A stretch of DNA of 46,085 nucleotides from an uncultured Candidatus Cloacimonadota bacterium (GTDB lineage: Bacteria; Cloacimonadota; Cloacimonadia; Cloacimonadales; TCS61). The stretch spans positions 1 to 46,085 of the forward strand of contig CAZWYK010000001.1 in the NCBI GenBank assembly GCA_964638205.1, written 5' to 3'. The notes under the pieces are model-generated. The model saw only the letters and a program-made list of their open reading frames with translations, was not told where the DNA came from and searched no databases. Position 1 is the first letter of the stretch, and every line of letters begins with the position of its first letter. A program made the position numbers and the translations under genes. Positions 19,921 to 41,580 of this stretch are shown here, piece by piece.

Positions 19921-19943
19921 ATTTTTCTCACTATAAATTTTGT

Positions 19944-20326
19944 GTCAAAGAAGATATTAAGCCGGATTCTGTGAATTGCCTAAAAAGCAAAACAATGTCT
20001 ATCTCTCTAAATTGGGCATTACTGCGTTCAAAAGAACCCTAAAAAAGACCAATTTTAGCTGCCTACCCGAAAGCAATAGAGTCGGACCAACTCGTGCTTT
20101 CCTATTTGGCATTGCACCGGATAAGGCTTTCCGAGCATTACGATTCACATCGTAACCTGGTGGTCTCTTACACCACCTTTTCACCTTTACCTCAAAGAGG
20201 AAGTCTGTTTCTGTGGAGCTATCTTTCCGTCGCCGAAACTTTCCATTAAAAAGTATCCTGTCCTATGGTGTCCGGACTTTCCTTCCAACTCAAAAAGAGC
20301 TGGGCAGACATTTTATCTTCTTTGAC
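19944..20326 (-). ncRNA. rnpB: RNase P RNA, bacterial type A
   Basis: The minus strand carries GGAAGGAAAGUCCGGACACCAUAGGACAGG, GGUAAAGGUGAAAAGGUGGUGUAAGAGACCACC, GCAAUGCCAAAUAGG, GGGUAGGCAGCU and ACAGAAUCCGGCUUA, in the same order as E. coli M1 RNA. P1 is formed by 5' GUCAAAGAAGAUA (20314-20326) and 3' UAUCUUCUUUGAC (19944-19956). The region is a GC-rich island in AT-rich DNA. Confidence 0.93.
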
Positions 20327-28867: not shown

Positions 28868-31828
28868 ATGGACATAAAACAATTAAATTATTATTACAAC
28901 AAATTCAAATTTGGTGAAGATAATTTTCATAATTTAATGAAGAGTAGGGTGCGAGAAGTTCTTTTGATTTCAACCTTCTATGACGCTTTTATCTTTGAAC
29001 AAGATGGTCGTTTTTCAGAACAAATTTTTGGTGAATACCGCCAGTTAAACCTTAGTACTGCACCGCGAATTACCAGTGTGCCAACTGGTAAAGAGGCGTT
29101 AAGTAAGTTGAAGAAAAAACAATATGATCTCGTTATTACAATGATGCGGATTGGTGATGTTTCTCCTTTTGAGCTAAGTAAAAAAATTAAAGAAAAATAT
29201 TCAGACATCCCCATTTTATTGCTTTTGAATGTAGAGTCAGACATTATGCTAATTAATCAAAATAAGGATAAAATGAGATTCATCGATGATGTTTTTCTTT
29301 GGAAAGGTGACAGTAAGCTTTTTCTGGCGATGATAAAATGTGTCGAGGATAAACGAAATCTGGAATATGACACTAAACATGGACTCGTTCGTGTGATTTT
29401 ATTGATCGAAGATTCTGTCCGTTATTATTCTCGTTTTTTACCATTATTATATGAAGAAATTCTTAAGCAAACCCAAAGGTTAATTTCGGAAGAGCTAAAC
29501 GATATTAATAAACGATTACGAATGCGAGTGCGCCCAAAAGTTATTTTGGTTCATAATTATGATGAAGCGGAAGAAATTCTTAACAATTATCGTGAATACA
29601 TAATTTCCATTATCTCTGATGTTAAGTATATTCGCAAAGGCGAAATTGACAGCCAAGCGGGCATTAAATTATTAAACAAAATTAAAAATGAAAAATTTGA
29701 TATTCCCGTGCTTTTGCAATCATCAGATTTAGAAAATAAGTTAAAAGCTGAAAAGTTGAACATAGCTTTTTTACATAAAAATTCTACGGCATTATTGAAA
29801 GATTTGCGTAAATTTATCTTGGATAATTTAGGCTTTGGAGATTTTATTATTAGAAATCAAGTCGGAGAAGAGATTAACCGTGCTACTTCCCTTCTAGAAT
29901 TTGAAAAAATGTTACCAAATATTTCTACTGACTCTCTTTTGTATCATGGCAAAAAAAATCATTTCTCTGCTTGGCTTATTGCTCATGGTGAGATTCAGGT
30001 TGCAAAAAAAATCAAACCAATAAAAAATGAAGATTTTTCAACATCAAAAGCGATGCGACGCTATCTTATTAAAATTTTTAAAGATGTTAGAATTCAGAAA
30101 AATCAAGGAAAAGTAACTGATTTTTCTGAAAAAAATATTGATTCTAATGGTCAAATTGTAAAATTAAGTGAAGGTTCGCTTGGCGGAAAAGGACGCGGAT
30201 TAGCTTTTCTCAACGCTCTTTTTGCTACGATGGAAATGGAAAAACAATTTCCAAGTGTTGATATTGAAATTCCAAGCACAGCCATTATTGGGACTAATGA
30301 ATTCGATTTGTTTGTGGAAAAAAATAATATTTATAACTTCATTGAAAATAGGACAGACAAAGAGATCAATGACTATTTTATAAAATGTAAATTCTCCGAT
30401 AGCTTAATGGAAAAGCTGAGGATTTTTTTGAAATACAACACAAAACCAATTGCAATCCGCTCTTCTGGACTTTTAGAAGATTCACAATCTCAACCTTTTG
30501 CGGGCATTTATGAGACCTATATGCTACCAAACAATCATCCAGACGAAACTGAAAGGTTAAATCAAATAGCGGAAACAATAAAATTAGTTTATGCTTCTGT
30601 GTTTTTATCTACAGCACGAAATTATATTGAAAGCGTTAATTCTAACATCGAAGAAGAAAAAATGGCTGTCATCTTGCAGGAAGTAACTGGAACTCAACAA
30701 GAAAATATGTATTATCCGCATATTTCTGGGGTTGCACAATCATATAATTACTATCCTACCTCTAATTTGGAAAATAAAGATGGCATTGCGATGATTGCTT
30801 TTGGACTTGGAAAAACAGTTGTAGAAGGTGAAAAGAAATTCATTTTTTGTCCACATTATCCAAAAATTGAAATCATCTCCACAAATGAAGTTATTCGTAG
30901 TACGCAAAAGGAATTTTACGCAATCAATATGGAGTATGCTGAAACAGAAGATTTGCGAAAAGGTAAAAGTACACTACAAAAAAATACAATTAAAGCAGTA
31001 AAACATCATAAAAACTTTAATCATTTAACTTCAGTTTGGGATTATGAAAACAATACTTTAACACAAGATCCTAACCGCAAAGGTCCAATTGTCGTAAATT
31101 TTGCCAACATCATTAAATACAACCATTTTCCACTTGCAGAAATCATTACACATATTTTAGAAATTGGCGAGATCGCATTTGGTGTGCCAGTTGAAATTGA
31201 ATTTGCAGTCAATATTGACAAGGGAAAAGATAGTATAAACTCTATTTTTTCACTTCTTCAAATACGTCCACTTACCGTAAATATAGAATCAATTTCGATT
31301 GATAAAAATAATTTGGATAAATCGAAATTACTACTTTACACTGAGAAGGGAATGGGGAACGGAGCAATAGATGATATTTATGATGTCATTTATTTTAATA
31401 ATGAAACTTTTGATAACATGAAAACGGAAGAGATGGCAATCGAACTTGATGAATTGAATCGAAAAATGATTGCGCAAAATAGACAATACATTTTGATTGG
31501 TGTGGGGCGTTTTGGCACGCGAGATAAATTTTTAGGTATCCCCGTTCGTTGGGACCAAATTTCCAACGCAAAAGCAATCGTAGAAATTGGTTTGGAAAAT
31601 TTTAATGTTGATGCTTCGCAAGGCACTCATTTTTTTCATAATTTAATGTCCATGAATGTTGGCTATTTTGCAATTCCGTATAATTCTGAAAACGATAACT
31701 TAGATATTGATTGGTTAAATTCCCAGAAAAACATTATCGAAGCAACATATTTTAAACAGATTAGGGTCAAAAATCCAATGAAGATTAAAATGGATGGAAA
31801 GCGCGGTATATCTGTGATTTATAAATAA
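28868..31828 (+). CDS. Degenerate receiver + receiver + PEP/pyruvate-binding (PPDK_N, ATP-grasp-type) domain protein
   Basis: PPDK_N motifs GGKGRGLAFLN and IAIRSSGLLEDSQSQPFAGIYETY. The second receiver has IEDS, IISDVKY, LLQSS and FLHK. The first receiver-like module lacks the acceptor Asp (DLVITMMRIGD). Confidence 0.7.
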   Translation: MDIKQLNYYYNKFKFGEDNFHNLMKSRVREVLLISTFYDAFIFEQDGRFSEQIFGEYRQLNLSTAPRITSVPTGKEALSKLKKKQYDLVITMMRIGDVSPFELSKKIKEKYSDIPILLLLNVESDIMLINQNKDKMRFIDDVFLWKGDSKLFLAMIKCVEDKRNLEYDTKHGLVRVILLIEDSVRYYSRFLPLLYEEILKQTQRLISEELNDINKRLRMRVRPKVILVHNYDEAEEILNNYREYIISIISDVKYIRKGEIDSQAGIKLLNKIKNEKFDIPVLLQSSDLENKLKAEKLNIAFLHKNSTALLKDLRKFILDNLGFGDFIIRNQVGEEINRATSLLEFEKMLPNISTDSLLYHGKKNHFSAWLIAHGEIQVAKKIKPIKNEDFSTSKAMRRYLIKIFKDVRIQKNQGKVTDFSEKNIDSNGQIVKLSEGSLGGKGRGLAFLNALFATMEMEKQFPSVDIEIPSTAIIGTNEFDLFVEKNNIYNFIENRTDKEINDYFIKCKFSDSLMEKLRIFLKYNTKPIAIRSSGLLEDSQSQPFAGIYETYMLPNNHPDETERLNQIAETIKLVYASVFLSTARNYIESVNSNIEEEKMAVILQEVTGTQQENMYYPHISGVAQSYNYYPTSNLENKDGIAMIAFGLGKTVVEGEKKFIFCPHYPKIEIISTNEVIRSTQKEFYAINMEYAETEDLRKGKSTLQKNTIKAVKHHKNFNHLTSVWDYENNTLTQDPNRKGPIVVNFANIIKYNHFPLAEIITHILEIGEIAFGVPVEIEFAVNIDKGKDSINSIFSLLQIRPLTVNIESISIDKNNLDKSKLLLYTEKGMGNGAIDDIYDVIYFNNETFDNMKTEEMAIELDELNRKMIAQNRQYILIGVGRFGTRDKFLGIPVRWDQISNAKAIVEIGLENFNVDASQGTHFFHNLMSMNVGYFAIPYNSENDNLDIDWLNSQKNIIEATYFKQIRVKNPMKIKMDGKRGISVIYK

Positions 31829-33244: not shown

Positions 33245-33274
33245 TCTATAGATACGCATATATAAATACAAAAA

Positions 33275-33302
33275 GCACTTCTCAATCTGAGGGGTGCTTT
33301 TT
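33275..33302 (+). terminator. Rho-independent terminator of gdhA
   Basis: Stem gcacttctca (33275-33284), loop atc, stem tgaggggtgc (33288-33297; 10 bp including two G-U pairs), then ttttt. Confidence 0.7.
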
Positions 33303-33507
33303 GTATAAATTGTAAACAAAATTCACAATTATATATTTATATTGCCATTATGATTATTTTTTCATATTCAAATAAATAAATATTTTATTTGCAGTATTCT
33401 ATGAACTTTATTGTCATAAAATATGAAATAAGTTGAAGTTTGGAACAGAAATTGCATTCTAAAACAAAAAGCAGTAAAAAAATAATATTGATAAAATAGG
33501 AGAAAAT

Positions 33508-33750
33508 ATGAATGTAGAAAAACTAACAAGACTGGCTATTAGCGATAATGGTTTTATCTTCGATCCGATTACGGGACACAGTTTTACCACAAATGAGATT
33601 GGCATAGAAATCATTAATCTGCTCAAAGAAAACAAAGAAAACAAAGATATCATCGATGAGCTTAACGAAATTTACAGTGTTAATGAAAATGAACTTGATG
33701 TTGATTTAATGGATTTTATTCACAATCTTAAAAATTTCAGTTTGGTATAA
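33508..33750 (+). CDS. PqqD-family (RRE-like) small protein
   Basis: 80 aa. FTTNEIGIEIINLL matches the PqqD LNxxgxxIWxLL pattern, and IIDELNEIYSVNENELDVDLMDFIHNLKNFSLV matches the PqqD C-terminal helices. SD AGGAG lies 6 nt upstream. Confidence 0.6.
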   Translation: MNVEKLTRLAISDNGFIFDPITGHSFTTNEIGIEIINLLKENKENKDIIDELNEIYSVNENELDVDLMDFIHNLKNFSLV

Positions 33751-33753
33751 ATT

Positions 33754-34809
33754 ATGAAAATTACAGTAGCAATTAGTGGAATCAATGCAATTGATAATCC
33801 AGGACCAGGAACTGGCATTGCCAAATCTCTCAAAGAAAGTGGACTTGATGTTCGTACCATCGGTTTAGCTTATGATGCCCTGGAACCTGGTATTTATATG
33901 GATGAGGTCATCGATAAATCTTACATTATGCCGTATCCTTCGGGAGAACGCGAATCATTCATAAAAAGAATTCGCTACATTCATTCGATCGAAAAACTTG
34001 ATGTGATAATTTCAGCGTTAGATGCCGAACTTCCAATTTATATGGATATTGAAAAAGATCTTGCTGAAATGGGAATTAAGATGCTCATTCCGAGTAAAGA
34101 AATGTTCAAGCTTCGCAATAAAATAGAACTGAAAAAATTGGCAGAAGAAATAGGTGTGAAAAGTCCCGCATATATAGCTTGTGCATCATATCCAGATTTA
34201 CTCGCGGCGATTAATATCGTGGGTTATCCGTGTATGGTTAAAGGTCCGTTTTATGAAGCATTTAAGGCACATAACCTTGCTGAAGCTGAATTACATTTTT
34301 CTAAAATAGCTAACAAATGGGGTTATCCAATTATTGTGCAAAAATTTATTTACGGTGAAGAATTTGATGTGATCGGTTGTGGTGCTGGAAATGGAAAAGA
34401 TTTGGGCGTTTTTGCTATTCGCAAAATGACGACTACTTCGCTCGGAAAAGTTTGGAATGCGGTAAGCATTCACAACGATGATTTAATTGAAGCGACCAAA
34501 AGAATGATTGCAAAATTACAATGGCGAGGCGGTCTCGAATTTGAAGCATTAATAGAAAACGGAACTGGCGATATTTATCTTTTGGAAATAAACCCGCGTT
34601 TCCCAGCGTGGATTTACATGGCATCTGGCTGTGGAATTAACTTGCCAGAACGAATGGTGAAATCTCTTTTGAATTTAGATTATGAAAATCATTCTGACTA
34701 TAAAAGTGGGAAAATGATGATTCGTTACACTGCCGAATTGGTAAAAGACATTAGTGATTTTGAAAAAATAACGACCAATGGTGAATTGGAAAATAGGAGT
34801 AAAAAATGA
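33754..34809 (+). CDS. ATP-grasp domain ligase (carboxylate-amine/peptide ligase type)
   Basis: VGYPCMVKGPFYEA, PIIVQKFIYGEEFDV and YLLEINPRFPAWIY, with typical ATP-grasp order and spacing. Confidence 0.8.
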   Translation: MKITVAISGINAIDNPGPGTGIAKSLKESGLDVRTIGLAYDALEPGIYMDEVIDKSYIMPYPSGERESFIKRIRYIHSIEKLDVIISALDAELPIYMDIEKDLAEMGIKMLIPSKEMFKLRNKIELKKLAEEIGVKSPAYIACASYPDLLAAINIVGYPCMVKGPFYEAFKAHNLAEAELHFSKIANKWGYPIIVQKFIYGEEFDVIGCGAGNGKDLGVFAIRKMTTTSLGKVWNAVSIHNDDLIEATKRMIAKLQWRGGLEFEALIENGTGDIYLLEINPRFPAWIYMASGCGINLPERMVKSLLNLDYENHSDYKSGKMMIRYTAELVKDISDFEKITTNGELENRSKK

Positions 34810-36137
34810 GTAAAAAAGAGTATATAAAACCATTTATAAAAAAACAAACTGCTGGAAATATGAATAAATTCGGTTCATTTTATCAGAAAAACTACCGTGA
34901 TGAAATTGCTGGTGCAAAGATAGATGCAATCGTAGAAAAATGTGGTTCACCTGTTTTTGTTATTGATGAAAAAGCCATTCGTGAAAAATACCGTGAAGTT
35001 TATCGCAATTTTAGTAGTCGCTACCCAAAAGTGCAATTTTCATGGTCGTATAAAACAAATTATCTCGATGCAATCTGTGCTGTTTATCATCAAGAGGGCT
35101 CAATTGCAGAAGTAGTTTCTGAATTTGAATATCAGAAAGCACGCCGTCTCGGCGTGCCAGGAAATAAAATTATTTTTAATGGTCCCTTCAAACCAGAAGA
35201 AGCACTAAAAGTTGCATTCGAAGAAGGTGCAATCGTAAATTTAGATAACTTTGATGAAATTTTCAAAGCAGAAAAAGTTGCAAAAGAGATGGGGCAAATT
35301 GTTGATGTTGGTATCCGCCTAAATATGGATACAGGCGTTTATCCACAATGGTCGCGCTTTGGTTTTAATTATGAAAATCGTAATGCTTACGATGCCGCAA
35401 AACGCATCCACAAAAGTGAATGGCTCAATCTTACGGGACTTCATTCTCACATTGGTACTTTTATGCTGGAACCAAAAGCTTACGCTGCCCAAGTGAAAGT
35501 TATGATTGACTTTATGCGTATAATTGAACGTGAATTCGACATGACAATTGATTCGCTTGATTTTGGTGGTGGTTTTCCATCTCGCAATAAACTGAAAGGA
35601 ACATATTTGCCACCAGAAGTATCGGTTCCATCACTTTCAGATTTTATTGCGGCAATTTCAGCAGACGAATATCCTACCGTTTATATGGAAACTGGGCGTG
35701 GACTCATCGACGAAGCAGGTTATCTCGTAACTACGGTTGATGCGATAAAACGACTTCCGAGTGGAATAAAAAGTTACATTATCGATGCTGGCGTGAATTA
35801 TTTATACACTTCAACTTGGTATAATTATAAAGTTGAGGTTGACCGCCCGATTGAAGGTTCTTACGAAAATTGTATCGTTTACGGTCCACTTTGTATGAAT
35901 ATTGATGTGGTTTTGGAAAATGCTTCATTACCGCCACTTTCACGCGGAACTCGCTTGATTCTTTCGCCAATGGCGGCGTATAATGTAACGCAATGGATGC
36001 AATTTATTCGCTACCGCCCAGCCGTAGCTATGATTATGGATAATGGCGAAATCGAAATTATTCGTCGTGCCGAAAATTTGGAAGATGTGATTGGTCCAGA
36101 AAGATTACCAGAAAAATTGAAAAAATTTGAGCTGTAG
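34806..36137 (+). CDS. Fold-III PLP-dependent decarboxylase (Orn/DAP/Arg decarboxylase family)
   Basis: PLP-Lys context FSWSYKTNY, then HSHIGT, DFGGGFP, ETGRGL and YGPLCMNID. ATGA overlap with the ATP-grasp gene. Confidence 0.85.
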   Translation: MSKKEYIKPFIKKQTAGNMNKFGSFYQKNYRDEIAGAKIDAIVEKCGSPVFVIDEKAIREKYREVYRNFSSRYPKVQFSWSYKTNYLDAICAVYHQEGSIAEVVSEFEYQKARRLGVPGNKIIFNGPFKPEEALKVAFEEGAIVNLDNFDEIFKAEKVAKEMGQIVDVGIRLNMDTGVYPQWSRFGFNYENRNAYDAAKRIHKSEWLNLTGLHSHIGTFMLEPKAYAAQVKVMIDFMRIIEREFDMTIDSLDFGGGFPSRNKLKGTYLPPEVSVPSLSDFIAAISADEYPTVYMETGRGLIDEAGYLVTTVDAIKRLPSGIKSYIIDAGVNYLYTSTWYNYKVEVDRPIEGSYENCIVYGPLCMNIDVVLENASLPPLSRGTRLILSPMAAYNVTQWMQFIRYRPAVAMIMDNGEIEIIRRAENLEDVIGPERLPEKLKKFEL

Positions 36138-36155
36138 TAGAATAAGGAGTAATTT

Positions 36156-38225
36156 TTGAAGAAACATTTTTTGCATTTTACGGATAATTTATTACACAGT
36201 TATTCGACCTTACTTTTTATGAAAAGTCGCAAAGTAGGAGCCCTGCTCCTACTTTGCACTTTATTCAACATAAATATAGCTGTTTTGGGGGTTATTGCTT
36301 GGTCAACAACTTTTGCTTTTGCTCGCTTTATTGGCATCAAAAAAGAAGATGTTGTTCATACTGTTTACACCTACAATTCACTATTAGTTGGTTTTGCTAT
36401 TGGCTATCTATTCAAGATAACAGCGCTTTCTATTTTTCTAACAGTTGGTGCGTCAATTTTGACGGTGTTGCTTAGTTATACCTTATTTACGCTATTCAGT
36501 TATTATTTGCGACTTCCTGTTTTGAATATTCCGTTTACGATAGTTAGTTCTATTATTTATCTTGCTGCGGTAAAGTACAGTGCTCTTTTTGTAGGTGCTT
36601 CTTACTCAAAAGATGTGTTAAATATCACTAATTTACCACCCATTTTACACGGATTTTTCAGTAGTGTGGGCGTGTTACTTTTCTCACCATATGACATTAT
36701 TGGAATTGTCGTAATTATTGCAATTTTACTTTACTCTCGTATCACTTTTTTGCTTTCCATATTCTCCTATTTTATTGGAATCTCTATTCTTGCACTTTTG
36801 AAAGGTAGCTATAATCAAGCAATTTTAGATATTTCCTCTTTTAATTTTATTTTGATTGGAATTGCACTCGGTGGAATTTTTCTGATTCCATCAAAAAGAA
36901 GCTACACACTGGCTCTAATTGGTGTAATAATTTCAGTTTTTATTCTTGATGCGGTTTCGGTATTTTGGTCAACTTTTGGTATTCCGATTTTCACTTTACC
37001 TTTCAATTTAGTAGTGTTACTTTTTGTTTATGTCTTGCGTAATGTTGGTTATCCAAAAATAAATAATTACATCAAAGAATCACCCGAAGAGTCACTTTCT
37101 AGTTATTTAAATTTTTCGCGTAGATTCGATTATCTCACGCCACAGCCGTTTCTTCCTTTTTCTGGTGAATGGACAGTTTATCAAGAATTTGACGGTAAGT
37201 GGACGCATCAAGGTCACTGGAAATATGCTTATGATTTTGTCATTACCAATCATGACGGTAAAACTTTTTCAGAAAAAGGAAATAAATTAGCAGATTATTA
37301 TTGCTACGAAAAACCAATTTTATCACCCATAAATGGGACGATTATCGAAGCTTCTGACACACTACGCGATAACGCAATTGGCGTAGTTGACCGCAAAAAT
37401 AATTGGGGAAATTACATCATTATCTACTCCGAGTTTGGTTATTATGTGGAAATTTCACATCTTCAAACTAAATCGTTAAAAGTAAAAGTAGGTGATTATG
37501 TAAAACACGGTGCTGTTTTAGCAAATTGTGGAAATTCGGGTTATTCGCCACAACCACACCTTCATATTCAAATTCAATATTTAGCAAAGCTTGGCTCGGA
37601 AACTTATCCATTTTTCTTTAGCAATGTGAAACGAAATGATGAACTTATAAAAGGTAATTTGAAAAGAGAGATGAAAATTAAGCCTGTTTCATTCTCTCGT
37701 AAACACAATAAAATATTGCAATTTATTCTCGATGATTCTTTTATTTACGAAGTTCAAAAAAATGGTGAAGTTATTGATGAGGTGGAATTTACAATTCAAA
37801 TGCTTGCCGATGGTTCGTATTATTTCAATCAAATAAATACAGATGATAAATTGTTTTTTGGAATAGAAAACAATAAATTTGTTTTTTACAGCTATACCGG
37901 GAAACAAGACGGTTTCCTAAAATATTTATTTTATGGATTGCCAAAAATGCCAATTGCTAAAAGTAAAAAATTATTATGGAAAGAAGAATTACCAGATGAA
38001 CTTTTTTCATCTAAAAAAGGTTGGATTATGATGGTAATTAAATCATTTAAACACAACTTGGGCAGTGTTATGGGAAATTACCAAATGGAAAATGATTACA
38101 CAATTAGTGGAGAAATTCCAGCAATGAAGATAAAAACAAAAATAGTCTTGGATAAAAATAAAGGGTTTAGGAAAATTGTTGTGACAAAAGATAACATCGA
38201 ATGGAGATTAAGTTTAAAAAAATGA
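36156..38225 (+). CDS. Urea-transporter-like (UT) membrane domain fused to an M23 peptidase domain and a ~190-aa C-terminal domain of unknown type
   Basis: About 10 TMs with a UT-like VYTYNSLLVGFAIGYLF segment. M23 part: WTHQGHWKYAYDF, NWGNYIIIYSEFGYYVEISHL, NCGNSGYSPQPHLHIQ. TTG start 6 nt after AAGGAG. Confidence 0.75.
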   Translation: MKKHFLHFTDNLLHSYSTLLFMKSRKVGALLLLCTLFNINIAVLGVIAWSTTFAFARFIGIKKEDVVHTVYTYNSLLVGFAIGYLFKITALSIFLTVGASILTVLLSYTLFTLFSYYLRLPVLNIPFTIVSSIIYLAAVKYSALFVGASYSKDVLNITNLPPILHGFFSSVGVLLFSPYDIIGIVVIIAILLYSRITFLLSIFSYFIGISILALLKGSYNQAILDISSFNFILIGIALGGIFLIPSKRSYTLALIGVIISVFILDAVSVFWSTFGIPIFTLPFNLVVLLFVYVLRNVGYPKINNYIKESPEESLSSYLNFSRRFDYLTPQPFLPFSGEWTVYQEFDGKWTHQGHWKYAYDFVITNHDGKTFSEKGNKLADYYCYEKPILSPINGTIIEASDTLRDNAIGVVDRKNNWGNYIIIYSEFGYYVEISHLQTKSLKVKVGDYVKHGAVLANCGNSGYSPQPHLHIQIQYLAKLGSETYPFFFSNVKRNDELIKGNLKREMKIKPVSFSRKHNKILQFILDDSFIYEVQKNGEVIDEVEFTIQMLADGSYYFNQINTDDKLFFGIENNKFVFYSYTGKQDGFLKYLFYGLPKMPIAKSKKLLWKEELPDELFSSKKGWIMMVIKSFKHNLGSVMGNYQMENDYTISGEIPAMKIKTKIVLDKNKGFRKIVVTKDNIEWRLSLKK

Positions 38226-39337
38226 AAAATTCACTCATTATTGGTTTAATCTTATTTGTATCATTTATTAATGCAGAATTATCTTTTTCTACCGATTTGT
38301 TGTATTTTAAATACAACGAAAATGGGCATTTTAAAGACGGTGATTATGAAAATAGTTCAACAAAATATTCAAACAAAAAACATACTTTTATATTTTCTCT
38401 CACAAATCAGCGTACAAACACAAAACCACACACACAAACTATTTCACAAGATTATGATGTGACTATTCAAGAAATTTGGACAGATTCAGTTTATTATAGT
38501 AATCCTGATACAATTTATGTGAATGAATTTTGCGATACAACTTATAAATTTACTGAAATGATTTCAGACACACTAAATTATGCGGAAATGGCCGTTATTC
38601 AAAAGGAGATATTATTTGGCTGGCAATATCAATTTTCAAAAAATAAAACTGCTGAAATTGAAGCAAAATACATGTTTTTCAAAGAGAGTAACATTGAGTC
38701 TGCTTACTCTATAAGTGCTAATTATGGCTATAGTTTTGGGAAATTATCATCTCAATCAACTGTTTGTGCAACGCAAATAAACTCTTACTATTTTGAAAAT
38801 AATTGGATTTTTAATCCAAATAATAAGGTGGAAATTGAACAAACAACAACTTATAATGACACAATTTATCAATTTGAACCAGATAGTTTAATCACCACAA
38901 TTGTAAAAAATATAAGTTGCGAATATCCTGTTTATGAATCCCAAGAATTTGAAGATAATTTCCAAACGATTCAATTTTCGCAAGATTTCACTTACATCAA
39001 TAATCGATTGCTGATAAATGCCAATATCCATATTTCCAGAACACTTAATTCAGCGGTGTATGATAGCACTCATCGTTATTTTATAAATGGTAATATCGCT
39101 TGGTATTTTGATTATTTTGGTATTTATGGTGGTGGATCTACGGGAGATTCATTTATGCAAAATAATTCCAAAATCCTCAATGCTTCAGCTGATATTACGG
39201 ATTTGAATTTGAGTTTTGGCATGATTATTTATCCACTTTATCGAAATTGGAGTATTGCTTACGAAACGAAATTCATTGAACATCAAAACAATTATTCGAT
39301 AACTTCGCACTTATTGAATATCTATATAAAATTTTAA
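38222..39337 (+). CDS. Secreted beta-rich protein, probable outer-membrane beta-barrel
   Basis: Start set to the ATG at 38222 (ATGA overlap with the upstream stop). Signal peptide MKNSLIIGLILFVSFINA. Aromatic/Asn-rich strands. C-terminal ...LLNIYIKF. Confidence 0.45.
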   Translation: MKNSLIIGLILFVSFINAELSFSTDLLYFKYNENGHFKDGDYENSSTKYSNKKHTFIFSLTNQRTNTKPHTQTISQDYDVTIQEIWTDSVYYSNPDTIYVNEFCDTTYKFTEMISDTLNYAEMAVIQKEILFGWQYQFSKNKTAEIEAKYMFFKESNIESAYSISANYGYSFGKLSSQSTVCATQINSYYFENNWIFNPNNKVEIEQTTTYNDTIYQFEPDSLITTIVKNISCEYPVYESQEFEDNFQTIQFSQDFTYINNRLLINANIHISRTLNSAVYDSTHRYFINGNIAWYFDYFGIYGGGSTGDSFMQNNSKILNASADITDLNLSFGMIIYPLYRNWSIAYETKFIEHQNNYSITSHLLNIYIKF

Positions 39338-39352
39338 AATAAAGGAGAAAAA

Positions 39353-39979
39353 ATGAAGAAAATAATGATAATTGCGATGATTTTTATCACTCTTGGAGTT
39401 ATGGCAAAAGAGATGGAATATGCTGAAATTCGCGAAGCATATACAAAATCATACGAATATGAAGCTTTGGAAAAATATGGAGATGCAATAAAATCACTCA
39501 ACCAAGTTCAAAAAAAATATTCAGATGAATACACGATTAATTACCGTTTAGGTTGGTTGTACTATCTAAAAGGTAAATTTTCAAATGCGTTAGAATATTT
39601 GGAAAAAGCTCTTGTAGGTAATCCATACTCTGTTGAAGCTTTGAATACGAAAAATTTAGTGCATATTGCTCAAAAAGAGTGGCAAAAGTCAGAAGAGTTG
39701 TCTGCCAAAATTATTGAAATAGATTACTATAATGTGAGTGCAAATTATTGGTATTCATATTCTTTGAAGATGCAGAAAAAACATAATTTGGCGATTAAAA
39801 TTGACCGGAAAATGTTAACTATTTTTCCAACATCTATTCTGTTTTTACAAGAATTAGCCGAAAACTTAAATTTGAATGACGAATCAGAAGAAAGTTATTC
39901 AATTTTTAGCGGTTTATTAATTCTTGATCCGACAAATCAAAGTGCTATCGAATTTTTTGATAACTCAAAAAAAGATTAG
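39353..39979 (+). CDS. Secreted TPR-repeat protein
   Basis: Signal peptide, then TPR units such as YRLGWLYYLKGKFSNALEYLEKAL and YWYSYSLKMQKKHNLAIKIDRKML. SD AAGGAG. Confidence 0.65.
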   Translation: MKKIMIIAMIFITLGVMAKEMEYAEIREAYTKSYEYEALEKYGDAIKSLNQVQKKYSDEYTINYRLGWLYYLKGKFSNALEYLEKALVGNPYSVEALNTKNLVHIAQKEWQKSEELSAKIIEIDYYNVSANYWYSYSLKMQKKHNLAIKIDRKMLTIFPTSILFLQELAENLNLNDESEESYSIFSGLLILDPTNQSAIEFFDNSKKD

Positions 39980-41010
39980 TTATTCAGTATTTTCAGCATC
40001 CAAAAAGTAGATAGATTCTCGATAGTATCTTCACCGATTTTCATTCGAGAAGCATTGATGAAATATGAATTTCGTTTTTCTTGCAAGTATTCTTCTGGAA
40101 AAATATAGGTTCCTTTTTTTGTTTTGAATTTTTCCAAATGGGCAATACCATTTTTGTACCATTTACTTTTTCTTGTTGGCTCAAATGGGCTCATCAAACT
40201 TAATCGAAAAAGCAACTCATTTATTTGTGGTGATTTTTCATCTATTTCACTAAAACATGGCAACCAAACATTCCAACCAACCACAAAAAATCTTTTTGGA
40301 AATGATACCATCACGCCGTAACCATCTGGGAAATTTTGGTATTTTTTATTTAGAATATAATTAATAATCGTATCAATTTTTTCTTTGAATTCACCATAAT
40401 ACGCAGCAAACGCAAATAGATCATAAATCCACGGTAGGGCGAAGTCATCATTTTCATACAAAAGTGGATCAATTATTTTGTGGTTTTCAAATGCGGGTGG
40501 AAAATCTTTAAAAAGAACTTTGTCGATAAAGACATTATAATTTTTCTTTTTTGCAAAACTATAGAGTAAATCGAGACGATTCAAAACAAAATCTCGCACA
40601 TTTTTTTCATCTGTAAAGCCGGCTTTTGCTAAGAGTGAAGATACAATTGTTTGTAAAAAATAGTCATTATGTGGAAGTTCAGACTCTTCTTCCGCAATTT
40701 CTTGCAACCAGTTTATGTGTTTGGCTACATTTTTATCAAAATTACTTACACCTTTTTTGATGCCTAACTGAAGTAGTTTTCCCAAAGAATTTTCGAGACT
40801 TTTATCATATCCACCGTGAATATTATCATAGCGACGGCGAGTTTTTAAGCATTTCATCCAGTATTTTGCGTCTTTATGCTGCAGTAGTTCATAGCGTAAC
40901 ATACCAATATCATAATCCACTTCCTCGTTTGCCAATTCTGTGGCAATGCGATAACGAATTATTGGATTTGCATTTTCAAAAAGATAATCGATTGTCTGAT
41001 TTTTTTTCAA
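39976..41010 (-). CDS. Hypothetical cytoplasmic protein, helical, no family recognised
   Basis: 344-aa ORF with a TTG start after GGGGGA. Convergent with the TPR gene and overlapping its stop by 4 nt. Confidence 0.5.
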   Translation of the reverse strand: MKKNQTIDYLFENANPIIRYRIATELANEEVDYDIGMLRYELLQHKDAKYWMKCLKTRRRYDNIHGGYDKSLENSLGKLLQLGIKKGVSNFDKNVAKHINWLQEIAEEESELPHNDYFLQTIVSSLLAKAGFTDEKNVRDFVLNRLDLLYSFAKKKNYNVFIDKVLFKDFPPAFENHKIIDPLLYENDDFALPWIYDLFAFAAYYGEFKEKIDTIINYILNKKYQNFPDGYGVMVSFPKRFFVVGWNVWLPCFSEIDEKSPQINELLFRLSLMSPFEPTRKSKWYKNGIAHLEKFKTKKGTYIFPEEYLQEKRNSYFINASRMKIGEDTIENLSTFWMLKILNN

Positions 41011-41081: not shown

Positions 41082-41480
41082 TTACGACTTGTTCTCAATA
41101 TTTTTGATTATTTTTTCTTGCATAGCAACCATTTTTTTTAGCTGTTGTACATAATCTTCATAAATTTTTTTGATGTCTTTATAGAGTTCTTTGTTCTCAT
41201 TTTCAGTAGTTTTTGAAGATAGAGTTTTTCGGGGGATAATGTTTTTTTCTATTTTTTTTTCGACGCTCAAAAACATTTCGCCAGTGCCAGATAAAAACCA
41301 ATTCATGTTTATTTTGTGTATTTCACAAATTTTATGAAGAAAATCTGCGGTTGGCAGGCGTAACCCCTTTTCATAACGGCTGATAGCAGCTTGAGTAGTG
41401 GCGATTGAATCTGCGAAATCTTTCTGATTCAAGTCTAATTTTGCCCTTATTTTTTTTAACCTACTTGCTAACCGCTCCAT
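41082..41480 (-). CDS. XRE-family helix-turn-helix transcriptional regulator with coiled-coil C-terminus
   Basis: HTH LNQKDFADSIATTQAAISRYEKGLRLPTADFL. Start set to the ATG at 41478-41480 after GAGGAA. The track start at 41507 is a TTG. Confidence 0.8.
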   Translation of the reverse strand: MERLASRLKKIRAKLDLNQKDFADSIATTQAAISRYEKGLRLPTADFLHKICEIHKINMNWFLSGTGEMFLSVEKKIEKNIIPRKTLSSKTTENENKELYKDIKKIYEDYVQQLKKMVAMQEKIIKNIENKS

Positions 41481-41500
41481 CGATTCCTCACACTTAAAAT

Positions 41501-41580
41501 ATGTCAATCTGGAATATTTACCTTGACAAATATACCGAATGGAATTTCTATTGACTCGACATTTTTGTCAATAAAAATTT
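41501..41580. promoter_or_regulatory. Divergent control region with four TTGAC half-sites (putative XRE operators and promoters)
   Basis: GTCAA at 41503-41507, TTGAC at 41523-41527, TTGAC at 41551-41555 and GTCAA at 41567-41571. The last two form ATTGAC-N11-GTCAAT. TTGACT at 41551 plus a 16-nt spacer and AAAAAT is a possible promoter for the small gene. Confidence 0.35.

What the first reader, a model, noticed from the sequence alone, without database searches (positions are those of the whole stretch)
33303..39979. Six-gene operon combining a PqqD-like protein, an ATP-grasp ligase, a PLP decarboxylase, a UT-channel::M23-peptidase fusion, an OMP-like protein and a TPR protein: candidate undescribed biosynthesis/export system
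Seen: six same-strand ORFs have junctions of +3, -4 (ATGA), +18 (AAGGAG-6nt-TTG), -4 (ATGA) and +15 nt. The block is bounded upstream by the gdhA terminator plus a 205-bp AT-rich gap, and downstream by a convergent gene, so it looks like one transcription unit. The catalytic motifs appear intact: ATP-grasp YLLEINPRFPAW; decarboxylase SYKTNY/HSHIGT/GGGFP/ETGRGL/PLCMNID; M23 SHL and HLH. Established: PqqD-like domains act as peptide-recognition elements in RiPP pathways. ATP-grasp enzymes form amide or ester bonds via acyl-phosphates. Fold-III decarboxylases act on basic or dicarboxylic amino acids. UT proteins are channels for small amides. Inference: the gene set could ligate an amino acid onto a peptide, protein or small acceptor, decarboxylate it, cleave with the M23 domain, and move a small product through the UT-like channel and an outer-membrane component. 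I do not recognise this gene combination as a characterised pathway.
Basis: partly seen in the sequence, partly recalled or inferred. Interest (0 to 1): 0.85.

Follow-up and report, generated by a model that had tools for sequence, protein, structure and literature searches.

The report
Conserved ligase–decarboxylase–urea-channel/peptidase envelope cassette
The six genes are real and form one copy of an uncharacterised cassette found in hundreds of double-membraned bacterial species, pairing an amide-forming ligase and a decarboxylase with a urea-channel-like pore fused to a zinc peptidase; its product is unknown.

Summary
Six tightly packed same-strand genes (33508-39979) encode:
- a PqqD-like protein;
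- an ATP-grasp ligase;
- a FigC-like PLP decarboxylase;
- a urea-transporter (UT)-fold protein fused to an M23 peptidase and a new C-terminal domain;
- a signal-peptide, outer-membrane-like protein;
- a periplasmic TPR protein.

The set is not a one-off. The UT-M23 fusion occurs in at least 572 species genomes from about 18-20 phylum-level lineages. The PqqD/ATP-grasp/decarboxylase trio lies next to it in 47 of 57 informative loci. Searching from the ATP-grasp recovers the same partners.

A second version, in Shewanella and others, keeps UT-M23, gene 5 and TPR. It replaces the enzymes with an unrelated lysine-decarboxylase-like enzyme, a larger ATP-grasp and a C45 acyltransferase/hydrolase. 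So "decarboxylate plus ATP-dependent ligation" is the conserved chemistry.

I found no precursor peptide gene, riboswitch, curated family or paper that explains the cassette.

Best reading (about 0.4): a cytoplasmic ligate-then-decarboxylate module makes an amine-ended amide. A probably cytoplasm-facing M23 domain processes it, and it passes through the UT-like pore to TPR/outer-membrane partners. Product, direction and topology are inferred.

The parts
33270..33303 (+). Terminator-like bulged hairpin plus T-run after gdhA; upstream boundary of the unit
   Evidence: AAAAAGCAC...GTGCTTTTT read directly. The consensus scan did not call it.
33304..33507 (+). 204-nt AT-rich (18% GC) leader/promoter region with AGGAG at 33498-33502, 5 nt before the ATG
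   Evidence: Promoter-like hexamers at 33310-33337 and 33322-33351 are no more frequent than in shuffled sequence. No ORF of 20 aa or more on the + strand. No Rfam match.
33508..33750 (+). 80-aa PqqD-like (RRE-fold) protein
   Evidence: PF05402 37.6 bits vs cut-off 23.4. Conserved LAxNxxGFxFDPxTGxSFxxNxTG...DxxDF core in 54 orthologues, with no conserved Lys, Cys or C-terminal acid. Always discrete, about 78 aa, never fused.
33754..34809 (+). 351-aa ATP-grasp ligase of the carbamoyl-phosphate-synthase (CPS)/biotin-carboxylase-like branch
   Evidence: ATPgrasp_Ter 38.2 and ATP-grasp_3 25 bits. CPS-like PRK12767 about 80 bits, below cut-off. AF2 model pLDDT 86.4. Foldseek: 2pn1 TM 0.81, then biotin carboxylase, CPS, PurK and PurD. 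Invariant S8-G21 loop and E278/N280.
34726..34806 (+). Conserved, predicted-disordered C-terminal tail of the ATP-grasp (…DxxxF-x-x-I-x-T-x-G-E-x)
   Evidence: pLDDT 33-60. E344 invariant. GE lies near the end in 64 of 74 independent metagenome homologues, and 33 of these have exactly one residue after it.
34806..36137 (+). 443-aa alanine-racemase-fold (fold III) PLP decarboxylase, FigC/FslC-like; PLP lysine in SYKTNY
   Evidence: PF02784 100.2 and PF00278 47.7 bits. FslC 206.7 and LysA 195.2 bits, both below cut-off. PDB: 7kh2 N-citrylornithine decarboxylase 183.6 bits, LysA 127, BtrK 98. Cys loop is CMNID, like FigC CMQHD and unlike diaminopimelate decarboxylase CE(S/T)xD.
36156..37046 (+). 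Urea-transporter-fold membrane domain (residues 1-297) of the 689-aa fusion protein
   Evidence: PF03253 189.9 bits. AF2 model pLDDT 89.6. Foldseek: Desulfovibrio vulgaris urea transporter (dvUT) TM 0.80-0.83. Both NIPFT/TLPFN signatures and the aromatic-Asn pore pairs (Y73N74, F229N230) are kept, but dvUT GQ..FQ/GE..FQ positions are changed.
36229..36257 (+). Strong 13-bp hairpin inside the 5' part of the UT-M23 coding sequence (role unknown)
   Evidence: -26.2 kcal/mol, z = -8.3. No comparable hairpin stands out in the other loci; the strongest ones there all come from GC-rich genomes.
37161..37583 (+). M23 zinc-peptidase domain (residues about 336-476) with all metal and catalytic positions kept
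   Evidence: PF01551 50.1 bits. H351, D360, H435, H468 and H470 invariant in 20 homologues. Foldseek: LytM, DipM and lysostaphin.
37584..38222 (+). About 210-aa beta-rich C-terminal domain with no family or solved relative
   Evidence: No Pfam or NCBIfam hit. Confidently modelled. Almost always found behind a UT domain: 541 clusters at E<=1e-30, mostly about 690 aa.
38222..39337 (+). Gene 5: 371-aa (378 aa if started at 38201) signal-peptide protein ending in Phe; outer-membrane beta-barrel-like, divergent member of a cassette-specific family
   Evidence: No family. hhalign to the common about-290-aa gene-5 family: 94.5% probability, E 8e-8. Family present in 68 of 83 loci. 41 of 57 members end in F. 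Only sporadic weak porin hits. No PDB relative.
39353..39979 (+). 208-aa periplasmic TPR protein (cleavable signal peptide, no lipobox)
   Evidence: TPR_16 36.5 bits and others. Orthologues in 71 loci; nearly all cleanly called N-termini carry a signal peptide followed by a YxxSYxYEK motif.

Best explanation
The operon is one copy of a widespread two-module cassette.

Module 1 is cytoplasmic. The ATP-grasp enzyme uses ATP to join a carboxylate to an amino acid through that amino acid's side chain. The most likely case is the side-chain amine of a lysine/ornithine-type residue. The FigC-like PLP decarboxylase then removes the free alpha-carboxyl group of the tethered residue. The result is an amine-terminated amide (an N-acyl-diamine-type product). 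The PqqD-like protein acts as an adaptor that binds an extended peptide. Its ligand could be the conserved disordered C-terminal tail of the ATP-grasp enzyme or an unlinked peptide.

Module 2 is in the envelope. A urea-channel-fold pore carries a probably cytoplasm-facing M23 zinc peptidase and a new beta-rich domain on its C-terminal side. These trim or release the product at the mouth of the pore. The pore conducts the small amide across the inner membrane. The periplasmic TPR protein and the beta-barrel-like gene-5 protein receive it.

Shown: gene structure, domain identities and folds, intact catalytic residues, tight co-conservation, and the existence of a swapped enzyme module.
Inferred: substrates, order of steps, direction of transport, membrane topology, and the role of each envelope protein.
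For: 1. One transcription unit is likely. Junctions are +3, -4, +18, -4 (or -25) and +15 nt in the window. Median gaps across phyla are 7, -4 and 6 nt.
2. Co-conservation is strong. The UT-M23 fusion is in at least 572 GTDB species genomes. The trio is adjacent in 44 of 57 loci with enough flank by strict criteria, and in 47 after inspecting L020, L053 and L076. Searching from the ATP-grasp in metagenomes, the decarboxylase is adjacent in 42 of 47 loci, UT-M23 is next in 34 of 40, and PqqD is upstream in 67 of 74.
3. There are two modules. Magnetomorum carries the trio and UT-M23 at separate loci. In Shewanella and two other lineages, UT-M23, a gene-5 homologue and TPR are kept. The enzymes are replaced by a fold-I LdcC-like decarboxylase (PF01276 246 bits; LdcC 219 bits), a 510-aa biotin-carboxylase-like ATP-grasp (NF005096, 528 bits) and a C45 acyltransferase/hydrolase, with no PqqD.
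4. The decarboxylase is closest to N-citrylornithine decarboxylase (184 bits), ahead of LysA (127) and BtrK (98). It has the FigC-type Cys loop. That clade acts on amino acids tethered through their side chain (PMC7857480).
5. The M23 catalytic residues are invariant.
6. A cytoplasmic M23 is favoured by three observations. Some homologues have K/R-rich N-terminal extensions of about 50 aa without a signal peptide. UT-B termini are intracellular (PMC12998343). The nearest M23 relatives are membrane-anchored proteins of haloarchaea and Thermus with a basic linker before the domain.
7. The UT fold and signature motifs are retained.
8. TPR and gene 5 carry signal peptides.
Against: - No product, phenotype or biochemical datum exists.
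- A PqqD/RRE protein normally implies a peptide substrate. No conserved small ORF lies in or near the cassette.
- The ATP-grasp's closest folds are bicarbonate-activating enzymes (biotin carboxylase, CPS, PurK), so the acyl donor may not be an organic acid.
- FigC's citrate-binding Arg aligns with Gln here, so the acyl group is unknown.
- Small hydrophilic molecules do not usually need a dedicated outer-membrane protein and a TPR partner.
- The K/R bias of the UT loops is not decisive for topology. Almost all known M23 enzymes work outside the cytoplasm.
- Several dvUT pore-lining polar positions are changed, so channel function and selectivity are unverified.
- Orphan UT-M23 genes exist.
Confidence: 0.4

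Rival explanations
1. A peptide-based (RiPP-like or carrier-tethered) pathway. The PqqD-like protein binds a recognition sequence. The ATP-grasp attaches an amino acid to a Glu or C-terminal carboxylate of a peptide. That peptide is either encoded elsewhere or is the enzyme's own conserved ...F-x-x-I...G-E-x tail, as in borosin self-modifying enzymes or the LysW ...EDWGE carrier. The decarboxylase acts on the tethered residue. The M23 domain cuts at the Gly-Glu region to release a small modified fragment, which leaves through the pore.
For: - PqqD fold with a conserved peptide-binding-type core.
- The RRE plus protease plus ATP-dependent amide-former trio matches RiPP logic.
- The ATP-grasp tail is conserved and disordered. 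E344 is invariant and the protein usually ends 1-2 residues later.
- F-x-x-I resembles the W/Y/L-xx-P/L/I motif reported for many RREs (PMC12710340).
- LysW uses the gamma-carboxyl of the C-terminal Glu of its EDWGE motif as the attachment site (PMC10433800).
- BtrK, a relative of the decarboxylase, acts on a carrier-protein-tethered amino acid.
- The tail and PqqD are both absent from the Shewanella-type version.
Against: - No precursor gene is conserved next to the cassette.
- Consuming an enzyme tail would be single-turnover.
- Residues after GE vary in number from 0 to 20 or more.
- The ATP-grasp is not close to the LysX/RimK type (rimK_fam only 20 bits); the graspetide type was not compared.
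- The PqqD-tail interaction was not modelled.
- The Shewanella-type version works without PqqD or the tail.
Confidence: 0.2
2. A cell-envelope modification or tethering system. A diamine, or a decarboxylated amino acid, is installed on peptidoglycan precursors or another envelope polymer. The M23 domain is a periplasmic peptidoglycan endopeptidase anchored by the UT fold. The TPR and outer-membrane proteins link the modified wall to the outer membrane.
For: - M23 enzymes are classically peptidoglycan hydrolases, and the best named hits are MepM, Pgp3 and ShyC types.
- TPR and gene 5 are exported.
- By taxon name, the cassette is confined to double-membraned lineages.
- Peptidoglycan-bound cadaverine or putrescine made with a fold-III lysine decarboxylase is known in Selenomonas and Veillonella (my own knowledge, not checked here).
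- The Shewanella-type decarboxylase is lysine-decarboxylase-like.
Against: - UT-family topology and the basic N-terminal extensions place the M23 domain in the cytoplasm.
- The same M23 subfamily occurs in haloarchaea, which lack murein.
- No Mur-type, flippase or transpeptidase gene is in the cassette.
- No Negativicutes appear among the 80 best loci.
- This reading leaves the conserved UT pore motifs without a role.
Confidence: 0.15
3. A secreted linear, side-chain-free polyamide (or polyurea). The ATP-grasp and decarboxylase work in repeated cycles: add an amino acid through its side chain, then decarboxylate to regenerate a terminal amine, as in the first BtrJ/BtrK cycles. Alternatively, bicarbonate activation joins diamines. 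The chain threads through the amide-binding UT slot. The Gly-Gly-type M23 domain trims it. A TPR plus beta-barrel pair exports it, as in synthase-dependent polymer systems (AlgK/AlgE, PgaA, BcsC).
For: - The TPR plus outer-membrane barrel pairing resembles exopolymer export (my own knowledge).
- The ATP-grasp fold is nearest the bicarbonate-activating enzymes, and the Shewanella-type enzyme is biotin-carboxylase-like.
- M23 grooves favour residues without side chains (established for lysostaphin and LytM).
- The UT filter binds planar amide or urea groups, and its aromatic-Asn pairs are kept.
- BtrK is a relative of the decarboxylase.
Against: Entirely analogical. No polymerase-like processivity element is known. 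The UT pore has never been shown to pass a chain. The gene-5 barrel (about 270 mature residues) is smaller than known polymer porins. No such polymer has been reported.
Confidence: 0.08
4. An uptake or nitrogen-handling system. The outer-membrane protein, TPR protein and UT pore import urea or a small amide, and the cytoplasmic enzymes assimilate or detoxify it. The M23 domain is regulatory.
For: UT proteins are passive channels that work in both directions. The window has a glutamate dehydrogenase gene immediately upstream.
Against: - gdhA adjacency is not conserved outside close relatives.
- No urease, urea carboxylase or amidase accompanies the cassette.
- ATP-dependent ligation followed by decarboxylation is biosynthetic logic.
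- The M23 catalytic residues are invariant, so the domain is not degenerate.
Confidence: 0.05

Closest known systems
Butirosin side-chain genes btrI-btrJ-btrK (small carrier protein, ATP-grasp ligase, PLP decarboxylase)
   Same: A small protein, an ATP-grasp and an alanine-racemase-fold decarboxylase that acts on a tethered amino acid. BtrK is a detectable relative of the decarboxylase (98 bits; clade described in PMC7857480). The three-gene layout is from my own knowledge.
   Different: BtrI is a phosphopantetheinyl carrier, whereas the small protein here is PqqD-fold with no conserved attachment residue. None of the other btr enzymes is present. The envelope module has no btr counterpart.
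Rhizoferrin pathway FslA/FigA + FslC/FigC of Francisella (ligate ornithine, then decarboxylate)
   Same: FigC is the closest solved relative of the decarboxylase (7kh2, 183.6 bits) with the same CMxxD loop. Both use a ligate-then-decarboxylate order.
   Different: The ligase there is a siderophore synthetase of the NRPS-independent type, not an ATP-grasp. The exporter there is an MFS pump. FigC's citrate-binding Arg aligns with Gln here. The FslC model score of 206.7 is far below its cut-off of 500.
RiPP pathways with a discrete PqqD-type recognition element (PQQ, lasso peptides) and peptidase-containing exporters
   Same: A PF05402 protein next to an ATP-dependent amide-forming enzyme and a protease. 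The protease is fused to a membrane conduit, as in peptidase-containing ABC exporters.
   Different: No precursor peptide gene is present. All specific PqqD models are below cut-off. The conduit is a passive urea-channel fold, not an ABC transporter. The protease is M23, not C39 or a transglutaminase-like type.
LysW/LysX amino-group carrier system
   Same: An ATP-grasp ligase works with a short acidic ...GE C-terminus, and a metallohydrolase releases the product. The LysW EDWGE motif and Glu54 attachment are described in PMC10433800. The ATP-grasp here ends in ...GE-x.
   Different: The GE tail is on the ligase itself, not on a zinc-finger carrier. The ligase is not close to the RimK/LysX type (20 bits). 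No kinase, reductase or aminotransferase steps are present.
Urea transporters (dvUT, Yut, mammalian UT-A/UT-B)
   Same: The same fold (TM 0.75-0.83). Both LPxxTxPF-type signatures and the aromatic-Asn pore pairs are kept.
   Different: The protein is fused to M23 and a new domain. It scores 100.9 against a cut-off of 274.6 for the Yut urea-transporter model. Polar pore-entrance positions are changed. It is never found next to urease genes in the loci examined. The fusion architecture has been noted in the literature, without a function (PMC12998343).
HPr-rel-A system PqqD family chaperone (TIGR04353)
   Same: NCBI gives orthologues of the 80-aa protein in other genomes this name.
   Different: The window protein scores 21.3 against a cut-off of 35. 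No kinase-type family was recorded on any cassette gene in the loci with Pfam annotations. The name looks like an over-transfer.

Membership tests
PqqD / RiPP-recognition-element fold (PF05402) | Profile match above the curated cut-off | tested here: met
   37.6 bits vs 23.4, residues 17-77.
PQQ-biosynthesis PqqD (TIGR03859) | Equivalog score plus pqqA/B/C/E neighbours | tested here: not met
   18.9 bits vs cut-off 46. No pqq genes are in the operon.
HPr-rel-A system PqqD (TIGR04353) | Equivalog score plus an adjacent HprK-related kinase | tested here: not met
   21.3 bits vs cut-off 35. None of the six genes is kinase-like. Orthologues elsewhere do receive this name.
RiPP biosynthetic gene cluster | A precursor peptide gene in or next to the cluster | tested here: not met
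   No + strand ORF of 20 aa or more in the leader region. No small ORF is conserved across loci beyond close relatives. Intergenic gaps are a few nucleotides. An unlinked or enzyme-fused precursor is not excluded.
RiPP biosynthetic gene cluster | The RRE protein binds a leader or recognition peptide | not testable with these tools
   Needs complex modelling or binding assays. Only a candidate F-x-x-I motif in the ATP-grasp tail was seen.
ATP-grasp superfamily | ATP-grasp fold with Mg/ATP-binding E-x-N motif | tested here: met
   PF15632 38.2 and PF02655 25 bits. E278 and N280 invariant. Foldseek TM 0.81 to 2pn1 and 0.6-0.7 to biotin carboxylase, PurK and CPS.
RimK/LysX-type protein-modifying ATP-grasp ligases | Membership of the RimK/LysX sequence family | tested here: not met
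   rimK_fam 20.1 bits vs 143.4. The best hits are CPS-like PRK12767 models, all below their cut-offs. The graspetide ligase type was not compared.
Alanine-racemase-fold (fold III) PLP decarboxylases | Both domains present, with PLP lysine, Gly loop, EPGR-type Arg and catalytic Cys | tested here: met
   PF02784 100.2 and PF00278 47.7 bits. K83 in SYKTNY, GGGFP, ETGR and C363 are present.
Diaminopimelate decarboxylase LysA (TIGR01048) | Equivalog score and the CE(S/T)xD substrate loop | tested here: not met
   195.2 bits vs 297.9. The loop is CMNID.
N-citrylornithine decarboxylase FslC/FigC (NF041039) | Model score, citrate-binding Arg387, and a partner NIS synthetase | tested here: not met
   206.7 bits vs 500. 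The Arg aligns with Gln. No NIS synthetase is in the operon.
Urea transporter family (PF03253) | Full-length profile match and UT fold | tested here: met
   189.9 bits covering positions 3-290 of 292. TM 0.80-0.83 to dvUT.
Urea transporter family (PF03253) | Conducts urea | not testable with these tools
   Signature motifs are kept but polar entrance residues differ. The Yut equivalog scores 100.9 vs 274.6.
Peptidase family M23 | Profile match plus the H...D, H and HxH zinc/catalytic residues | tested here: met
   50.1 bits vs 28.7. H351, D360, H435, H468 and H470 invariant. The H-to-D spacing is longer than the canonical HxxxD.
Peptidoglycan M23 endopeptidases (MepM, ShyA/C, Pgp3 type) | Extracytoplasmic location and murein substrate | tested here: inconclusive
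   All named models are far below cut-off. Topology inference favours the cytoplasm, but the K/R bias is indecisive.
Outer-membrane beta-barrel proteins | Signal peptide, C-terminal aromatic residue and a beta-barrel fold | tested here: inconclusive
   Signal peptide present and 41 of 57 members end in F. Only single-member weak hits to OmpG-like and OMP_b-brl. No PDB relative.
TPR proteins | TPR repeat profiles | tested here: met
   TPR_16 36.5, TPR_14 33.2 and TPR_2 32.6 bits.
Known anti-phage defence systems (PADLOC) | Any component model match | tested here: not met
   No hits for any of the six proteins.

The most novel reading that the evidence does not exclude
The cassette is a previously unrecognised kind of envelope system of double-membraned bacteria. 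In it, a urea-channel fold has been recruited as the inner-membrane conduit for a product assembled on, or cut from, a peptide tail. That tail would be the ATP-grasp's own LysW-like ...GE end, presented by the PqqD-like protein. The product would be made by ligate-and-decarboxylate chemistry and released by a cytoplasmic M23 peptidase. It would be either a small amide or a threaded, side-chain-free polyamide or polyurea chain, handed on to a TPR/beta-barrel pair.
Probability: 0.2. Interest if true: 0.9.

Novelty: new variant of a known kind. Interest (0 to 1): 0.72.

Why it matters
A six-gene set kept together in hundreds of species from Aquificota to Verrucomicrobiota, including small chemolithoautotroph genomes, probably serves a general physiological role that nobody has described. 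It would give the first function to a large class of bacterial 'urea transporters' that are not linked to urease. It would also give the first function to a branch of M23 peptidases that probably works inside the cell, and it would add a new pairing of a PqqD-type adaptor with an ATP-grasp ligase. The existence of two interchangeable enzyme modules narrows the chemistry to decarboxylation plus ATP-dependent ligation. Cultured hosts carry the cassette (Persephonella, Thermovibrio, Thermodesulfatator, Shewanella surugensis), so the question is directly testable. It also flags current annotations as probably misleading: 'urea transporter', 'carbamoyl-phosphate synthase large subunit', 'diaminopimelate decarboxylase' and 'HPr-rel-A system PqqD'.

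Tried and rejected
- Precursor peptide. I clustered all 10-100-aa ORFs within 1.5 kb of the cassette ends in all loci. Only overlapping-frame artefacts among close relatives clustered. Intra-operon gaps hold nothing conserved; one holds a GIY-YIG-like insertion.
- Carrier-protein idea for the PqqD-like protein (LysW- or ACP-like). Rejected, because no conserved Lys, Cys, Ser or C-terminal acid is present.
- Riboswitch or leader RNA. Rfam at gathering thresholds on the window and four loci found only RNase P RNA and a tRNA.
- Known defence system. No PADLOC hits.
- Curated system names. NCBIfam gave only below-cut-off generic hits.
- Literature. Combinations of PqqD, ATP-grasp, urea transporter, M23, decarboxylase and Thermovibrio locus tags gave nothing on this cassette. 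One paper notes the UT-M23 architecture without a function.
- Gene 5. No family or PDB relative.
- Topology from K/R counts of the UT loops. Indecisive.
- Conservation of the hairpin inside the UT gene. Not supported.
- DNA of the closest relative. Unavailable; only its gene order was returned.
- Domain fusions among PqqD or ATP-grasp homologues that might show who binds whom. None found.
- Plasmid collection. No cassette, only M23-domain relatives.

Full report
**What is in the window.**
Six same-strand ORFs occupy 33508-39979. Upstream lies the stop codon of a glutamate dehydrogenase gene. Its orthologue in an 87%-identical relative carries the ELFV dehydrogenase domains. A bulged hairpin with a T-run follows at 33270-33303, then a 204-nt gap of 18% GC. 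Downstream, a convergent 344-aa ORF overlaps the last stop codon by 4 nt.

There are two small corrections. Gene 5 may start at 38201 rather than 38222. The TTG start at 36156 is supported by conserved residues that the public gene call (ATG 36219) cuts off.

**Identity of the six products.**
- Pfam supports every assignment above its curated cut-off: PqqD 37.6 bits, ATP-grasp 38.2 and 25, the two fold-III decarboxylase domains 100.2 and 47.7, UT 189.9, M23 50.1, and several TPR models. Gene 5 has no family.
- NCBIfam offers no system-specific name, and all specific models are below cut-off.
- The AlphaFold model of the 689-aa protein is confident (pLDDT 89.6). It superposes on the Desulfovibrio urea transporter (TM 0.80-0.83) and on LytM-type M23 domains. 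Residues 477-689 form a beta-rich domain with no detectable relative.
- In 20 homologues at 42-66% identity, the M23 residues H351, D360, H435, H468 and H470 are invariant.
- The UT signatures NIPFT and TLPFN and the aromatic-Asn pairs that align with dvUT F80 and its counterpart in the second repeat are kept. The dvUT GQ..FQ and GE..FQ positions are replaced.
- The ATP-grasp model (pLDDT 86.4) is closest to an uncharacterised CPS-like protein (2pn1). The next-closest folds are biotin carboxylase, carbamoyl-phosphate synthetase, PurK and PurD.
- The decarboxylase is closest to the N-citrylornithine decarboxylase FigC/FslC (7kh2, 183.6 bits). That is well ahead of diaminopimelate decarboxylases (127) and BtrK (98). 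Its catalytic-Cys loop reads CMNID, like FigC (CMQHD) and unlike diaminopimelate decarboxylases (CE(S/T)xD). FigC's citrate-binding arginine aligns with glutamine.
- The FigC paper places FigC, SbnH, AcsE, MccE and BtrK in a clade with diaminopimelate and D-ornithine decarboxylases. Apart from those two, its members act on amino acids attached through their side chain to a larger group, and the clade as a whole is described as unrelated to polyamine synthesis (PMC7857480).

**How widespread and how linked.**
- The UT-M23 fusion has more than 800 close homologues in the protein collection.
- These span about 18-20 phylum-level lineages: Cloacimonadota, Delongbacteria, Fibrobacterota, Calditrichota, Ignavibacteria, Rhodothermales, Aquificota, Thermodesulfobacteriota, Desulfobacterota, Campylobacterota, Gammaproteobacteria, Verrucomicrobiota, Planctomycetota, Gemmatimonadota, Spirochaetota, Nitrospinota and others. 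By name, all are double-membraned.
- The M23 plus C-terminal domain region alone retrieves 541 clusters at 50% identity with E<=1e-30. Nearly all are proteins of about 690 aa with the match starting near residue 300, so this pair of domains is essentially tied to a UT domain.
- Among 57 loci with at least 4 kb upstream, the strict script counts 44 with PqqD, ATP-grasp and decarboxylase immediately upstream in that order. L053 and L076 also have them, and L020 carries the trio just downstream, which makes 47.
- Median intergenic distances are 7, -4 and 6 nt.
- The TPR gene is present in 71 loci.
- Gene 5 belongs to a cassette-specific family of about 290 aa found in 58 loci. The window's version and nine others form a divergent branch (hhalign probability 94.5%, E 8e-8).
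- The reverse test starts from the ATP-grasp in metagenome contigs. It finds the decarboxylase adjacent in 42 of 47 loci, UT-M23 next in 34 of 40, and PqqD upstream in 67 of 74.
- The same six genes in the same order occur in Persephonella sp. IF05-L8 and in an unrelated MAG.

**Two modules and a swapped enzyme set.**
In Magnetomorum the trio and the UT-M23 gene sit at different loci. Orphan UT-M23 genes also exist.

Four Shewanella genomes and two other lineages carry a second version. Its parts are:
- UT-M23;
- a TPR protein;
- an 865-912-aa fold-I Orn/Lys/Arg decarboxylase (PF01276 246 bits; best named match LdcC, 219 bits);
- a 510-aa ATP-grasp (NF005096 'biotin carboxylase', 528 bits);
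- a C45 autoproteolytic acyltransferase/hydrolase;
- a gene-5 homologue (E about 1e-7);
- a second TPR protein.

It has no PqqD. Two non-homologous decarboxylases, each paired with an ATP-grasp and the same envelope genes, point to decarboxylation plus ATP-dependent ligation as the chemistry the envelope module serves. The fold-I enzyme's affinities suggest a basic amino acid.

**The PqqD-like protein and the missing peptide.**
The 54 orthologues share a strongly conserved core typical of PqqD/RRE proteins. They have no conserved Lys, Cys or C-terminal acid, so a LysW- or ACP-like carrier role is unlikely. The protein is always discrete and about 78 aa. NCBI names many orthologues 'HPr-rel-A system PqqD family peptide chaperone'. 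The window protein misses that model's cut-off (21.3 vs 35), and no HprK-related kinase is in the cassette.

No conserved small ORF accompanies the cassette.

One unexplained feature may be relevant. The ATP-grasp has a conserved C-terminal tail...DxxxF-x-x-I-x-T-x-G-E-x, that is predicted to be disordered. E344 is invariant in the 20-sequence alignment. In an independent metagenome set, GE lies near the end in 64 of 74 tails, and 33 of these have exactly one residue after it. Three comparisons bear on this:
- F-x-x-I resembles the W/Y/L-xx-P/L/I motif reported for many RREs (PMC12710340).
- A ...GE end recalls the EDWGE attachment motif of the LysW carrier (PMC10433800).
- Both the tail and PqqD are missing from the Shewanella-type version.

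These are leads, not tests.

**Topology.**
UT-B has intracellular N- and C-termini (PMC12998343). Two homologues have K/R-rich N-terminal extensions of about 50 aa without a signal peptide. The nearest M23 relatives outside the family are membrane-anchored proteins of about 310 aa from haloarchaea, Thermus and Thermomicrobium. They share the LPFxGxWTV...YAYDFVITD motif and have a basic linker before the domain. Together these favour a cytoplasm-facing M23 domain, at roughly 70%. The loop K/R counts are not decisive. Both the TPR and gene-5 proteins have signal peptides.

**Interpretation.**
The best-supported reading is a biosynthesis-and-passage system.
- The ATP-grasp tethers an amino acid through its side chain.
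- The FigC-like enzyme removes the alpha-carboxyl group. In the alternative version, decarboxylation comes first.
- The M23 and C-terminal domains process the product at the cytoplasmic mouth of a UT-like pore.
- TPR and gene-5 proteins act on the far side of the inner membrane.

I put this at about 0.4. Rivals are:
- a peptide- or tail-tethered, RiPP-like pathway (0.2);
- envelope or peptidoglycan modification with a periplasmic M23 (0.15);
- a secreted side-chain-free polyamide or polyurea (0.08);
- uptake or assimilation (0.05).

The identity of the acyl donor is open. The ATP-grasp's nearest folds activate bicarbonate.

**Comparison with what is known.**
The cassette resembles BtrI/J/K, FigA/FigC, RRE-dependent RiPP pathways, the LysW/LysX carrier system and urea channels in separate respects. 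It fails a defining test for each of these as a family:
- no precursor gene;
- no NIS synthetase;
- no phosphopantetheinyl or zinc-finger carrier;
- specific models below cut-off.

No paper or curated model describes it. The UT-M23 architecture alone has been noted, without a function. I therefore rate it a new variant of a known kind: a ligate-then-decarboxylate biosynthetic operon with a dedicated conduit. There is a real chance (about 0.2) that it is a new kind of envelope system.

Noticed in passing
window 36229-36257 (+), inside the UT-M23 gene: A perfect 13-bp inverted repeat (GCAAAGTAGGAGC-CCT-GCTCCTACTTTGC) lies 73 nt into the coding sequence. It folds at -26.2 kcal/mol (z = -8.3). It sits just after the enzyme module and right after the ATG that the public gene call used as the start. 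No comparable hairpin stands out in other loci; the strongest ones there all come from GC-rich genomes.
   Followed up: partly
window 34726-34806 (ATP-grasp residues 325-351): A conserved but predicted-disordered C-terminal tail ends in ...T-x-G-E-x. It is absent from the Shewanella-type ATP-grasp, which also lacks a PqqD partner.
   Followed up: partly
L037 9962-19682 (Shewanella surugensis); also L057, L072, L073, L071, L081: An alternative cassette: UT-M23, TPR, an LdcC-like fold-I decarboxylase (865-912 aa, with a 290-aa N-terminal extension), a 510-aa biotin-carboxylase-like ATP-grasp, a C45 acyltransferase/hydrolase, a gene-5 homologue and a second TPR protein.
   Followed up: partly
L165 5686-6612 (Haladaptatus megaplasmid); L166 5689-6648 (Thermus thermophilus plasmid): The nearest M23 relatives outside the family are membrane-anchored proteins of about 310 aa in haloarchaea (which lack murein), Thermus and Thermomicrobium. 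They share the LPFxGxWTV...YAYDFVITD motif. Their contexts are unrelated (nitrile hydratase; CRISPR type III).
   Followed up: partly
orthologues of window 33508-33750 in other genomes (P0241-P0360): NCBI annotation calls many of them 'HPr-rel-A system PqqD family peptide chaperone', although the cassette has no HprK-related kinase. This is probably an over-transfer from a low-cut-off model.
   Followed up: partly
window 36156 vs 36219: The public gene call for the identical protein (P0001, 668 aa) starts at the internal ATG and loses 21 conserved N-terminal residues. The TTG start with AAGGAG fits the family alignment.
   Followed up: yes
window 19943-20323 (-): Bacterial class A RNase P RNA, 238 bits, full length.
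   Followed up: no
window 28868-31828 (+): A 986-aa protein that combines a response-regulator receiver domain with a pyruvate-phosphate-dikinase/PEP-synthase-type ATP-binding domain (PPDK_N 131 bits; weak PigC-like hits). It is syntenic with gdhA and the cassette in the 87%-identical relative.
   Followed up: no
window 39976-41010 (-) and 41082-41507 (-): A convergent 344-aa ORF with no family overlaps the TPR stop by 4 nt. The next ORF's counterpart in the close relative carries HTH (XRE-type) domains. Both are kept in that relative.
   Followed up: no
L022 5145-5432 (Ignavibacteria MAG): A GIY-YIG-like small ORF is inserted in a 694-nt gap between the decarboxylase and UT-M23 genes. This is the only large interruption of the operon seen.
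   Followed up: no
L002 and L164 (Candidatus Magnetomorum): The enzyme trio and the UT-M23 gene sit at separate loci. There, UT-M23 follows a NeuD/PglB-type sugar acetyltransferase and two proteins of unknown family.
   Followed up: partly
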